Shown here: positions 24,001 to 27,000 of the stretch, piece after piece | How positions within the stretch are numbered: position 1 is the first letter of the stretch | Layout of the letters: every line of letters starts with the position of its first letter | Sequence record: NZ_AP026711.1 | Origin: a plasmid | Direction: 5' to 3' (one strand) | DNA length: 30,947 nucleotides | Program-made: the position numbers

Positions 24001-27000
24001 GAGCCGAAGCGATCGCCGCCACCGTCGACCAGGTGCAGCGCCGCGCCGATGCGGCACCAGGGCGCTGGACACGCGGAGGAGGGCCGGCCGACCGGCGCGT
24101 GCTCGACGCCCTGTGCCTGCTCGCCCTCCAAGCCGTCAGCGCAGCCGTCGAAGCAGACGTGCGCCGCCTCGCCCTGCTCGCCGGCATCGGCCGAGAGACC
24201 GCCCGCACCGCCCTCCTGCGCCTGGCCGGCGACGGGTGGATCAGCCAGGCCCAGGCGGGCACCGGCAGGCACGCCACCACCTGGACAATCGAGCCCCAGA
24301 CCGCTATCCACATGGATGCAGACCATGCCCGGTCACAAGGGGCTGCACGCCCCGCAGGGGCGGGCAGCCGATGGAGAAACCTCCTCCTGGACGAACTCAC
24401 CCACCGCCTAGACCTCGCCCGCCACGACACCTTCACCAACCCCCACGCCCTGGGCCTCGCCGCAGGAAACCTCTACGCCAGGCTCAATCACCCCCAGGTC
24501 ACCACTACGGAGATCACCCCCCTACTCGACCGACTCGCCTACGCCGGTCTCATCGTGGCCACGCCCACCGGCTGGCGGCGAACCCGGCCCGAGCTGCGCG
24601 ACCTCGCGGCCCGACGGCTCGGCGTCGAGGGGCGTCTCGACGCACGAGAAGGCCGCTACAAGGCCGAGCGCGATCTGTGGGAATGGTGGCAGGCCGAACT
24701 GGAATGGATGACCACACCAGGCCGCCACAAACGACGCCACCAGCCCACGGGACAGATTGCGCTCACGTTCGGCCGACCCTGGGACATCTACCCCCCCTAC
24801 CCGCGCCGACCAGACGGCCGCGCTGACCATCGAGCGGCCCGCGAAGCGATCGCCGCCGGAGCACTCGACCACCTTCATCAGAGCCTCGTCACTGCCGCCT
24901 GACCGCCGGGGGCAACCCTCGTCCCAACCACGCCGGAACCCGGCCACCCGGTTTCGAAGGCAACTGTGGGCGGGCCGAAGGGCCGTCCACAGGCGGCAGC
25001 CATGATCGACCACGAAAAACGACGCCATACAACGCCCCGAAACGGCCGAACTCAACCCCACCCAGGCAACCACACGCGGAAGGGGGTCACGGCCCGCAGA
25101 ACGCCCCACAGGGCCGCTCCGTAGAGGGGACCGCCTGACGCACCTGTGGACGGCCCAGCTCCCGACCGGCTGGCCCGCCCACAGGTGGACAGCCGACCAC
25201 AACGAGCCGGCCCCCAGGCCGACCCTCCCCAGGCGGCCCTGGCGGACCGTCATCATAAGGACGGCCGCTGCGCGGCCGGCAGCATGCGCCTACGGCGCAC
25301 GTTTTTGCCATTGAAGCCTTCGGCAGCATACGGTCGTCCGCCCTACGCGCAAGGGCTTTCGCGGCATATCCTCCCTCGCTGCGCTCAGTCCGGTATTCCA
25401 CGGTCCCTTGCACTCCGGGCTCCCTCCCTGGCGGCACTTCCAGTGCCTTCAATGGCAAAAAAACGTGAGGGAAGACAGGCAGTTCGCACGAACCGCACCA
25501 ATCACACGAAAGGAACCAACATCATGGCCCGGAAGATCAAGACCCACAAGACCCCCGAGCAGCGCCGCACCGAAGCGGCCGAACTGCACGAGACCATCGC
25601 CCAGCAGGTTGAGGCCCTGGCCACCTCGGAAGCATGGGCCCAGTTCCTCGCCTTCGCCGGGAAGTTCCACCGCTACAGCCTGAACAACTTGCTCCTGATC
25701 CTCGCCCAGCGCGAGAACGCGACGCAGGTCGCGGGGTACCGCACCTGGCAGAAGCTCGGCCGGCAGGTCCGCAAAGGTGAGCGCGGAATCAGAATCTTCG
25801 GCGGCCGCGAGGTCACCGAAACGATCGAGGACGAGACCACCGGAGAGGAGACCGAGCGACGCCGCACGCGATTCTTCCCCGTGTCCGTCTTCGACCTCGC
25901 CCAGACCGACCCCATCGAGGGAGCCGAGCCGATCCCCGAGAACCCCGCCGACGCCCACCAGCTCAGCGGCGACGACCCCGCCGGCATCGCCGAGGCCGTG
26001 ACCGACTGGCTCACCGGCCAGGGCTGGACCATCGAGCACGACCAGCTCGGGGCCGGACTCAACGGCTACACCAGCCACGACGACAAGCGAATCGTGATCG
26101 CGGCCGATATCTCCCCCGCCCAAGCCGCCAAGACGACCCTTCACGAGGCCGCCCACGCGCTCATGCACGCCGACATCACCCCCACCGAGTACCACGAGCA
26201 CCGGGGACAATGCGAGGTCGAGGCCGAAAGCGTCGCCCACGTGGTCGCCGGCATCGTTGGACTCGACACCAGCGCCTACAGCGTCGGCTACGTCGCCGGA
26301 TGGTCCAAGGGAGACGCCGACCTCATCCGCAAGAGCGCCAGCCGTGTGCTGGCCGCCGCGCACCGGATCATCGAAGCCATCACCGACTAGTTCTAATGGT
26401 GCGATTCGCACCATTAGAACGAAAGGAACGAATAGAATGAACAGTGAGAACAAGTCCGGCCGGAGCCCCCACGGTGCGCCGGCCTCCGGCCGGACTTGAT
26501 CTCCCGACTGTCCTCGACGCCGTGACAGCGAGGCGGGAAGCGACTACACTAGTTAGTGCGAACAGAACGAATGGCACTAACACCACGAACCGCACCAATC
26601 GCACGAACGGAACCAACAGCATGAGCATGACCCTCGCAATCAGCAACCAGAAGGGCGGTGTCGGGAAGACGACCACCGCCGTCAACTTCGCGCGCGCCGC
26701 CGTCACCGAGGGCCGGCGGACCCTCCTGATCGACCTCGACCCGCAGGGTAACGCCACCATGTCGGCCGCGAAAGACACGCCCACGCCCGAGGACGTCGGC
26801 GTGGCCGACGCGCTGAGTGAACGCAGTACCGAGACGCTGGAGAGCGTCATCGTCCCCGGCGTGTGGGATGGCCTCGACGTGGCCCCGACGCCGCCCAACG
26901 AGGCGCTGACCAGCGTTCGCAACGAACTGCTGACCACGCAGACCCCCGGCGTCGAGCACCGGCTGAGCGAGGCCGTGGCCAGCGTCGCGGACCGCTACGA

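What the first reader, a model, noticed from the sequence alone, without database searches (positions are those of the whole stretch)
25487..25526. Near-identical 40-nt 5' leader (CACGAACCGCACCAATC[A/G]CACGAA[A/C]GGAACCAACA[T/G]CATG) in front of both ardC and parA, embedded in GAAC-rich iterons
39 of 42 nt are identical at 25487-25526 and 26584-26623, including the SD and ATG, for two functionally unrelated genes (antirestriction and partition). Partial third copies sit at 26418-26440. A perfect 11-bp-arm palindrome (26394-26416) and a 12-bp-stem hairpin (26454-26495) also lie between ardC and parA. This looks like a shared operator/centromere system. A ParG-type or other RHH repressor could co-regulate establishment (ardC) and partition genes. 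These could also be iterated parS-like sites.
Basis: partly seen in the sequence, partly recalled or inferred. Interest (0 to 1): 0.55.

Follow-up and report, generated by a model that had tools for sequence, protein, structure and literature searches.

The report
ParB iteron arrays flanking ardC and parA
The 40-base leader shared by an anti-restriction gene and a partition gene is a block of 9-bp binding sites for the plasmid's own small partition protein, which probably lets that protein segregate the plasmid and also silence entry-phase genes; this logic is already known from other plasmids.

Summary
25487-25526 and 26584-26623 are 37/40 identical (not 39/42), both end in the start codon, and shuffles give no such match. 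The repeat is not an arbitrary leader. It is four units of a degenerate 9-bp iteron (G[C/A]AC-N-AA-[C/T]-N). The window holds three arrays and no others: 4 units before ardC, 2 inverted plus about 4 direct units (a perfect 15-bp-arm palindrome) at the ardC stop, and 7 units between a predicted promoter and parA.

The gene after parA (27412-27771) encodes a ribbon-helix-helix centromere-binding ParB of the pCXC100 family (Pfam PF18064; PDB 3NO7). That family's studied member binds unspaced 9-bp direct repeats upstream of parA.

Related Micrococcales conjugative plasmids carry divergent ParBs and different 9-bp iterons. They still place them before ardC, ssb, other entry-phase genes and parA, and as a palindrome or short cluster at the ardC stop. 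The sites therefore track the protein.

The best reading is a ParB centromere and operator that also covers ardC. This resembles omega of pSM19035, StbA of R388 and Reg576 of p576. Binding and repression are untested.

In passing: the conserved non-coding element just upstream of ardC folds on the non-coding strand and occurs across phyla. It looks like an undescribed single-strand promoter or origin.

The parts
25299..25466 (-). Conserved structured non-coding element at the head of the ardC unit. It is a candidate single-strand (T-strand) promoter or origin. It is associated with the iteron system but is not part of it.
   Evidence: About 89% identical to plasmids of other Micrococcales families, and its core is 82-91% identical in Burkholderia and Pseudomonas plasmids. 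Single-stranded DNA fold z = -4.0. In 13 copies, 45 pairs are 95.6% paired on the - strand against 86.8% on the + strand, and 13 pairs show compensatory changes.
25486..25521 (+). ardC-proximal iteron array of four contiguous 9-bp units (GCACGAACC GCACCAATC ACACGAAAG GAACCAACA). It contains the Shine-Dalgarno-like AAGGA and is followed by TC and the ATG. Leader copy 1 is 25487-25526.
   Evidence: position-weight-matrix hits at 25486, 25495, 25504, 25513; lag-9 identity 0.59, p = 0.0015.
25524..26390 (+). ardC, encoding an ArdC-like anti-restriction protein with an ssDNA-binding N-terminal domain and an M78/IrrE-type metallopeptidase.
   Evidence: PF08401 at E 1.8e-13; PF06114 at E 1.2e-5.
26390..26443 (.). 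Post-ardC iteron array. It holds a perfect 15-bp-arm palindrome (26390-26420, equal to two inverted units facing two direct units) followed by direct units at 26417, 26426 and 26435. Leader copy 3 is 26400-26439 at 70% identity.
   Evidence: inverted repeat I7; direct-repeat family D1; lag-9 identity 0.64. The palindrome is conserved in L009 and in close relatives. Miniimonas and Xylanimonas have a palindrome built from their own iterons at the same place.
26446..26503 (+). GC-rich hairpin between ardC and parA. It is the likely ardC terminator or attenuator and has no T-run.
   Evidence: inverted repeat I2; fold of 26385-26510, -64.9 kcal/mol, z = -8.6. Present in relatives.
26522..26550 (+). 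Predicted sigma-70-type promoter of parA-parB (GTGACA, 17 nt, TACACT).
   Evidence: the only promoter-like site in 25150-26700, against 0.1 expected in shuffles. Conserved in L011-L017.
26556..26618 (+). parA-proximal iteron array of seven contiguous 9-bp units. It fills the whole predicted 5' leader from about +1 to the start codon. Leader copy 2 is 26584-26623.
   Evidence: seven hits spaced exactly 9 nt apart; lag-9 identity 0.63; lag-18 identity 0.67.
26621..27415 (+). parA, a small Walker-type (type Ib) partition ATPase without an N-terminal HTH extension.
   Evidence: AAA_31 at E 5.7e-43 from residue 4, in a 264-aa protein.
27412..27771 (+). parB, a 119-aa centromere-binding protein. It has a basic N-terminal MSKRPERR motif and a C-terminal ribbon-helix-helix domain of the pCXC100 ParB family. 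It is the predicted reader of the iterons.
   Evidence: PF18064, 35.5 bits against a cutoff of 27; PDB 3NO7, E 4.2e-5; alignment.

Best explanation
The repeated 40-nt leader is a block of four 9-bp iterons fused to the ribosome-binding site and start codon. The iterons are the binding sites of the plasmid's own small ribbon-helix-helix ParB (27412-27771, pCXC100 family).

ParB dimers would bind the contiguous units cooperatively on double-stranded DNA. The 7-unit array lies between the predicted parA promoter and the parA start. It would act as the type Ib centromere and as the autoregulatory operator of parA-parB. The 4-unit array in front of ardC and the palindromic array at its stop codon bracket ardC with the same sites. 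ardC is thereby drawn into the partition complex and, most likely, silenced once ParB has accumulated.

ardC and parAB lie in the leading region, the first DNA to enter a recipient, behind a candidate single-strand promoter. The expected behaviour is a burst of ArdC in a ParB-free recipient, followed by ParB-dependent shut-off after the plasmid becomes double-stranded.

Shown by computation: the repeats, their 9-bp period, their restriction to these three sites, the ParB family assignment, the promoter prediction, and the co-variation of iteron sequence with ParB across plasmids.

Inferred: binding, cooperativity, repression of ardC, centromere activity and timing.
For: 1. The repeat is significant and 9-bp periodic.

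2. A matrix built from the units finds tandem, in-phase hits only at 25486-25521, 26394-26443 and 26556-26618. The total number of single hits in the window (59) matches shuffles (about 50), so it is the clustering that is special.

3. [quoted passage not shown]

4. The only sigma-70-like promoter in 25150-26700 ends 5 nt before the 7-unit array.

5. Relatives with 87% and 69% identical ParB keep 9-bp arrays with the GCAC core before parA.

6. Three further plasmid lineages have about 33-38% identical ParBs and different residues where the RHH beta-strand is expected. They carry different 9-bp iterons (CTATT/AGTACTATT or ATAGACC/ATTAGNCC).
- Their iterons still lie before internal leading-region genes, ssb and parA, and at the ardC stop (palindromic in pS16-2 and Xylanimonas).
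- In pS16-2 and Xylanimonas they also lie directly before ardC.
- In each whole plasmid they are found only there.

7. ardC in Herbiconiux pL3i23 has a different partition system and has no such iterons in its leader.

8. The leaders have no RNA structure (z +0.9 and +0.6), and one array is inverted. Both points favour DNA-level recognition.

9. There is precedent:
- The segregation protein StbA represses PardC in R388, and ardC overshoots after conjugation (PMC3937220).
- The RHH repressor Reg576 controls ardC576 (PMC6294495).
- Omega needs at least 4 contiguous repeats (PMC9499535), and 4 is the number before ardC here.
Against: - There are no binding or expression data.
- The units are degenerate, with about 60% lag-9 identity, and TRF does not call them.
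- The iteron sequence is unlike the pCXC100 consensus AGNTGGAAA.
- No conventional + strand promoter was detected next to the ardC array. 'Operator' in the strict sense is therefore not shown for ardC, and the array could act only as a roadblock or as a centromere.
- In L009 there is no promoter block between the hairpin and the parA array, so the promoter assignment is not general.
- Close relatives differ in the number of arrays, so not every array need be essential.
- The matrix was trained on the same units it then recovers.
Confidence: 0.68

Rival explanations
1. The arrays are centromere only. All three are parS-like loading sites that enlarge the partition complex. ParB bound there has no meaningful effect on ardC expression, and the position in front of ardC is incidental.
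For: The type Ib centromere is by definition the repeat array upstream of parA. pSM19035 has several parS sites. No + strand promoter was found beside the ardC array. Array number varies between near-identical plasmids.
Against: In five plasmid lineages the arrays sit within about 15-70 nt of start codons of leading-region genes rather than at random intergenic positions. In the known analogues (omega, StbA, KorB) the same sites serve both functions.
Confidence: 0.17
2. The repeat is a neutral recombination scar. The leader, including the SD and start codon, was copied when ardC was inserted into or next to the par operator. It persists without function.
For: Identity extends through the SD and ATG. 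Relatives L011, L012, L015 and L017 show a tandem duplication of the same leader block, including its GTG, so the block does duplicate.
Against: Plasmids with unrelated iteron sequences show the same layout. This requires concerted change of all sites with ParB specificity, which implies selection. The ardC array keeps exact 9-bp phase.
Confidence: 0.05
3. The element works at the RNA level. The shared A/C-rich, unstructured 5' leader is a translation-initiation module that gives both genes similar translation efficiency, and no protein binds the DNA.
For: Both leaders are predicted to be unstructured (z +0.94 and +0.57). They share the SD-like GGAAC and the spacing to the start codon.
Against: This does not explain the 9-bp period, the inverted copy and palindrome at the ardC stop, the extension of the parA array well upstream of the shared 40 nt, or the ParB-linked change of sequence in other plasmids.
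Confidence: 0.04
4. A DNA-binding protein other than ParB reads the repeats. Candidates include the 22484-22771 product named by the first reader, or a host factor.
For: Binding has not been tested. Several small ORFs of unknown function are present.
Against: The 22484-22771 product matches no Pfam family even at E <= 1. The 9-bp unspaced geometry and the position upstream of parA match the documented mode of the ParB family encoded 0.8 kb away. The iteron core tracks the residues where the ParB beta-strand is expected: TSFKHT with GCAC, VSFYQ with CTATT, and MGYYAA with ATAG/ATTAG.
Confidence: 0.06

Closest known systems
ParB / parS of Leifsonia xyli plasmid pCXC100 (type Ib; PDB 3NO7; Pfam PF18064)
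   Same: Both have a homologous C-terminal RHH domain, a small Walker ParA immediately upstream, and unspaced 9-bp direct repeats upstream of parA.
   Different: The repeat sequence differs (G[C/A]ACNAA[C/T]N against AGNTGGAAA). There are 7 units before parA here rather than 9. This plasmid also has two further arrays bracketing ardC, one of them inverted. No such extra sites are described in the pCXC100 paper read here (PMC3074162).
Omega (ParB) of pSM19035 / inc18 plasmids
   Same: Omega is an RHH centromere-binding protein. Its short contiguous repeats, direct and inverted, lie at several separate sites and serve as both parS and operators. At least 4 contiguous repeats are needed (PMC9499535).
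   Different: The repeats are 7 bp rather than 9 bp. No Pfam family other than PF18064 was found for the ParB here. Omega's other targets are copy control and a toxin-antitoxin system, not an anti-restriction gene. The hosts are Firmicutes.
StbA regulon of IncW plasmid R388
   Same: A plasmid segregation protein represses its own operon and PardC plus other maintenance/establishment promoters. ardC overshoots just after conjugation (PMC3937220).
   Different: By my own knowledge, not tested here, StbA is an HTH protein without a ParA partner.
Reg576 of Bacillus pumilus plasmid p576
   Same: An RHH repressor binds short repeated motifs in front of ardC576 and other establishment genes and in front of its own gene. 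This gives transient expression after transfer (PMC6294495).
   Different: Reg576 is a dedicated regulator, not a partition protein. Its operator is a dual heptamer, TTATCCC. The authors contrast it with single-strand promoters, whereas here a candidate single-strand promoter and the iterons occur together.

Membership tests
Type Ib ParABS partition locus | Small Walker-type ParA without an N-terminal HTH domain | tested here: met
   264 aa; the AAA_31/CbiA domains start at residue 4.
Type Ib ParABS partition locus | Small RHH centromere-binding protein encoded directly downstream of parA | tested here: met
   27412-27771 overlaps the parA stop. PF18064 scores 35.5 bits against a cutoff of 27, and 3NO7 matches at E 4.2e-5.
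Type Ib ParABS partition locus | Centromere made of tandem repeats located upstream of parA | tested here: met
   Seven in-phase 9-bp units at 26556-26618, ending at the start codon.
Type Ib ParABS partition locus | Cassette stabilises a plasmid; ParB binds the repeats and stimulates ParA | not testable with these tools
   Needs stability, EMSA and ATPase assays.
pCXC100 ParB family (PF18064) | C-terminal domain matches the family model above its curated threshold | tested here: met
   Homologues in L009, L010, L021, L022, L025 and L026 also pass.
pCXC100 ParB family (PF18064) | Binding sites are unspaced direct repeats with a 9-bp period | tested here: met
   Lag-9 and lag-18 identity peaks and spacings of 9, 9. 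pCXC100 reference values are 9.07 and 8.96.
Omega-type global regulator / multi-parS (pSM19035) | Sequence homology to omega | tested here: not met
   The Pfam scan of the ParB returns only PF18064. The resemblance is functional, not membership.
Omega-type global regulator / multi-parS (pSM19035) | At least 4 contiguous repeats at several separate loci in front of different transcription units, in direct and inverted orientation | tested here: met
   Arrays of 4, about 2 inverted plus 4 direct, and 7 units.
Omega-type global regulator / multi-parS (pSM19035) | Repression of the flanked genes by the centromere-binding protein | not testable with these tools
   Needs reporter or transcript assays.
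Frpo/ssi single-strand promoters (for the element at 25299-25466) | Lies in the leading region, co-oriented with the genes downstream | tested here: met
   18 of 18 copies in 9 loci are co-oriented. L011 shows ardC-parAB-resolvase-mobC-relaxase contiguous. MobC/NikA and the relaxase are at 10239-12343.
Frpo/ssi single-strand promoters (for the element at 25299-25466) | The transferred strand folds into a stem-loop that rebuilds -35 and -10 boxes | tested here: inconclusive
   The fold and covariation favour the - strand. TTGNNN, 16 nt, TAnnnT occurs on the - strand in 22 of 96 copies, against 1 of 90 for the + strand model. How the -10 pairs is unclear.
Frpo/ssi single-strand promoters (for the element at 25299-25466) | Sequence similarity to the F / ColIb-P9 Frpo-ssi classes | tested here: not met
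   This is an indirect test. Only 6 of 5,426 complete E. coli genomes carry the core, and this is too few if it were one of the classes found in F and IncI1 plasmids. No Rfam family matches.

The most novel reading that the evidence does not exclude
In a large family of Micrococcales conjugative plasmids, the leading region would be run by a two-layer switch.

- Layer 1: each operon is headed by a structured element that is active only on the incoming single strand. This element would be a previously undescribed class of single-strand promoter or origin. Its 50-60-nt core is nearly invariant from Actinobacteria to Beta- and Gammaproteobacteria.
- Layer 2: the genes are interleaved with iterons of the plasmid's own RHH ParB. 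Once the DNA is double-stranded and ParB is made, the ParB coats and silences the whole entry-phase region while using it as an extended centromere.

The 40-nt leader in this window would be the compact form of that arrangement.
Probability: 0.35. Interest if true: 0.75.

Novelty: new member of a known kind. Interest (0 to 1): 0.5.

Why it matters
A partition protein that also shuts off anti-restriction and other entry-phase genes would link plasmid establishment to stable inheritance through one small protein and one short DNA word. That logic has been shown experimentally only in a few Gram-negative and Firmicute plasmids. This window and its relatives suggest it is widespread in actinobacterial conjugative plasmids with pCXC100-type ParB. 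They also provide a natural series of ParB/iteron specificity pairs for testing how RHH proteins read 9-bp repeats. The iterons sit next to a cross-phylum structured element, which gives a concrete system for asking how single-strand-phase expression is later turned off.

Tried and rejected
- Tandem Repeats Finder on 25400-26700 found no array at score >= 30. Periodicity had to be shown by autocorrelation and a position matrix.
- An Rfam E-value scan of 24800-26800 gave only chance-level hits.
- The genome-contig scan with ParB returned no close relative, only 39-50% identical ones. Close relatives came from the protein search and contig look-ups.
- I first noted a frameshift in the gene after parB. 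That was an indexing error of mine. The gene is intact at 27783-28691 and 92.7% identical to the L011 homologue in one frame.
- The 20-aa ORF starting at the third leader copy (26437) is not conserved, because L009 lacks its ATG. I rejected it as a gene.
- For the upstream element I tested a + strand promoter that uses the conserved TTGAC of the 3' arm. Only 1 of 90 copies has a -10 at the right spacing, so I rejected it.
- I tested the idea that the element equals the F-type Frpo and rejected it, because it is rare in E. coli.
- Herbiconiux and Microbacterium plasmids were examined as possible iteron carriers. Their ardC has the upstream element but no iterons, and their partition protein is unrelated.
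Full report
**Context**

The window is about 67% G+C over most of its length. It carries a conjugation module on the + strand:
- MobC/NikA-like protein at 10239-10637
- MobA/VirD2-type relaxase at 10634-12343
- coupling protein within 12634-14646
- VirB6- and VirB4-like proteins
- an NlpC/P60-SLT hydrolase

These are followed by ardC (25524-26390), parA (26621-27415), a 119-aa gene (27412-27771), an intact 302-aa gene (27783-28691) and a DNA methylase. 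The nearest database matches are plasmids of Micrococcales.

**The observation**

- The two 40-mers lie exactly where stated and are 37/40 identical. The pattern never matched in 100 shuffles.
- A third copy at 26400-26439 is 70% identical in register.
- The palindrome is 15+15 bp, at 26390-26420, starting on the last base of the ardC stop codon.
- The hairpin is a 23-nt-arm repeat at 26446-26503.
- As RNA, 26385-26510 folds into two strong hairpins (z = -8.6). The two leaders themselves are unstructured (z +0.9 and +0.6).

**Anatomy**

The leader is built from 9-bp units.

- In register, the parA upstream region reads GTGCGAACA GAACGAATG GCACTAACA CCACGAACC GCACCAATC GCACGAACG GAACCAACA, then GC and ATG.
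- The ardC upstream region reads GCACGAACC GCACCAATC ACACGAAAG GAACCAACA, then TC and ATG.
- After the ardC stop there are two inverted units facing direct units, which form the palindrome, followed by GAACGAAAG GAACGAATA GAATGAACA.
- Lag-9 identity is 0.59-0.64 in each array against about 0.30 in shuffles, with a second peak at lag 18.
- TRF does not report these arrays, so the units are degenerate.
- A matrix built from the units finds in-phase tandem hits only at these three places. The number of isolated hits in the window equals the shuffle expectation. This test is partly circular. An independent word-sharing test with the parA upstream region also recovers only the ardC leader.
- The only sigma-70-like site in 25150-26700 is GTGACA, 17 nt, TACACT at 26522-26550. 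The 7-unit array therefore fills the predicted leader from about +1 to the start codon.

**The reader protein**

- The 27412-27771 product matches Pfam PF18064 (centromere-binding ParB C-terminal domain) above the curated threshold. It also matches PDB 3NO7, the RHH domain of pCXC100 ParB.
[quoted passage not shown] In type Ib systems ParB represses the operon from these sites (PMC3074162).
- ParA here is a small type Ib ATPase.
- The geometry and position of the parA array are what this family predicts, although the repeat word differs from the pCXC100 consensus AGNTGGAAA.

**Comparative evidence, close relatives**

- Contigs encoding a 99% identical ParB keep the ardC leader almost unchanged. 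In the four contigs sequenced across this interval (L011, L012, L015, L017) there is an extra iteron block after the hairpin. This block is a tandem duplication of the leader that includes its GTG.
- A contig with 87% identical ParB keeps the palindrome and a 9-bp array with GCAC[T/G]AA units. It lacks the promoter block.
- A contig with 69% identical ParB keeps a 9-bp array in which only the GCAC core persists.

**Comparative evidence, distant relatives**

- Miniimonas pS16-2. Words from the 40 nt before parA cluster above every shuffle at only three other places in the 29.6-kb plasmid. These are directly before ardC, as a palindrome at the ardC stop, and before ssb.
- Xylanimonas plasmid. 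AATAGTACTNTT-type sites precede ardC, ssb, parA and three small genes, and form a palindrome after ardC. All lie inside a 5.3-kb stretch of 32 kb.
- Gulosibacter pARLON1 and a Glutamicibacter plasmid. ATAGACC/ATTAGNCC 9-bp units precede five or six leading-region genes and parA, and follow the ardC stop. In pARLON1 the ardC start itself is preceded by the structured element rather than by iterons.
- All these plasmids encode PF18064 proteins.
- In the ParB alignment, the segment where the RHH beta-strand is expected tracks the iteron core. It reads TSFKHT in the GCAC group, VSFYQ in the CTATT group and MGYYAA in the ATAG/ATTAG group.
- Herbiconiux and Microbacterium plasmids have a homologous ardC but an unrelated partition protein. 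Their ardC leader has no such iterons.

The same layout with different words implies that the sites co-evolve with ParB and are under selection.

**Mechanism**

I conclude that the arrays are ParB binding sites. The parA array is the centromere and operator. The arrays flanking ardC either extend the partition complex, silence ardC, or do both.

Precedents:
- omega of pSM19035 has several parS/operator arrays and needs at least 4 contiguous repeats (PMC9499535)
- StbA of R388 represses PardC, and ardC overshoots after conjugation (PMC3937220)
- Reg576 of p576 is an RHH repressor of ardC576 (PMC6294495)

Weak points:
- There are no binding data.
- No conventional + strand promoter lies next to the ardC array.
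- Array number varies among close relatives.

**Leading-region placement**

- In relative L011 the order is ardC, parA, parB, 302-aa gene, 110-aa gene, AbiEii, resolvase, MobC/NikA, relaxase.
- In the window, AbiEii, resolvase, MobC and relaxase lie at 7907-12343.
- By the usual geometry of MOBP/Q systems, the relaxase gene is transferred last. This rests on my own knowledge and was not tested. On that basis, ardC and parAB are in the leading region and the - strand is the transferred strand, which is the template for these genes.

**The upstream element (noticed in passing, partly followed)**

- 25299-25466 is non-coding and about 89% identical in plasmids of other Micrococcales families. The ardC coding sequence is at most about 77% identical to any plasmid in that collection.
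- Its core (about 25349-25424) is 82-91% identical in 296 plasmid records, including 115 Burkholderia and 66 Pseudomonas. Of these records, 208 are conjugative. The element is never annotated.
- In Proteobacteria it lies in leading-region-like contexts beside ssb, a methylase, DUF945 and a large ParB-like gene.
- All 18 copies in 9 loci are co-oriented with the downstream genes. In pARLON1 a copy heads each leading-region operon.
- The invariant core is closed by a stem with fully compensatory changes. In 110 metagenome copies a stem arm pairs with its own partner at 8.66 of 10 positions, against 6.16 with non-partners.
- In a 13-copy alignment, 45 pairs are 95.6% paired and 13 pairs show double changes. 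No shuffle out of 500 reached these values.
- Wobble asymmetry points to folding of the - strand. There are 55 G.T cells on the - strand against 4 on the + strand. In the independent set the counts are 45 against 10. The structure was predicted on the - strand, so that comparison is biased. One search used Watson-Crick-only optimisation.
- On the - strand, TTGNNN, 16 nt, TAnnnT occurs in 22 of 96 copies. The corresponding + strand model occurs in 1 of 90.
- Rfam has no match.
- Only 6 of 5,426 E. coli genomes carry the core. The element is therefore unlikely to be one of the Frpo/ssi classes described in F and IncI1 plasmids (PMC11541004, PMC12672017).
- One E. coli copy lies about 400 nt upstream of a MobV relaxase gene.
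- My reading, at about 50% confidence, is a single-strand promoter or priming origin on the transferred strand. The ParB iterons lie between it and the ardC start codon.

**Verdict**

The system is a new member of a known kind, namely a centromere-binding protein that doubles as a regulator of establishment genes. It belongs to a protein family and a bacterial group in which I found no report of this dual role. The upstream element deserves its own study.

Noticed in passing
window 25299-25466 (core about 25349-25424); also L021 10595-10775, L022 16547-16721, L025 and L026 (4-5 copies each), L023 and L024 about 3944-4127: A structured non-coding element heads ardC and, in relatives, each leading-region operon. 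Its core is nearly invariant from Actinobacteria to Burkholderia and Pseudomonas plasmids, and it occurs in at least 120 metagenome stretches. The stems covary and the fold favours the non-coding (- strand) side. A TTGNNN, 16 nt, TAnnnT motif lies on that strand. There is no Rfam match, and the element is rare in E. coli. It is a candidate new class of single-strand promoter or origin.
   Followed up: partly
L011, L012, L015, L017 (region equivalent to window 26496-26530): Plasmids with 99% identical ParB carry an extra iteron block after the ardC-parA hairpin. It is a tandem duplication of the leader including its GTG, and that GTG becomes part of the -35 hexamer GTGACA of the parA promoter. 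The window has an unrelated 27-nt segment there.
   Followed up: partly
window 26437-26499: The third leader copy also ends in an ATG, which opens a 20-codon ORF running through the hairpin. The ATG is absent in L009, so this is probably not a gene.
   Followed up: partly
window 25285-25310: A short GC hairpin followed by TTTTT was flagged as terminator-like. Its T-run is also the 5' arm of the outer stem of the structured element, so the two readings overlap.
   Followed up: no
window 22881-24902: A large ORF (673 aa) has only weak Pfam hints of an archaeo-eukaryotic primase domain (PF22548, E 0.0056). A large ORF of similar size, annotated hypothetical, occupies the same position just upstream of the first structured element in pARLON1 and pS16-2. 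Its homology to the window ORF was not tested. The link to priming on the incoming strand is speculative.
   Followed up: no
window 1-8000: The left 8 kb has much lower G+C (50-64%) than the rest (65-74%). It separates the par/methylase end from AbiEii and the resolvase, and in L011 those genes follow the par region with far less DNA in between. It is probably acquired cargo.
   Followed up: no
L147 (E. coli pE2865-3) 3501-3558: One of only six E. coli plasmids with the element's core carries it about 400 nt upstream of a MobV relaxase gene, next to sul2 and aph(3'')-Ib. This hints at a link with mobilisation modules and single-strand origins.
   Followed up: no
L001 2625-2665 and 4165-4200; L004 3665-3700; L026 about 13390-13420: A GC-rich hairpin of the form GGCGAGGGG-N-CCCCTCGCGC recurs in intergenic regions of related plasmids, for example after ardC in pARLON1. 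It was not seen in the window.
   Followed up: no
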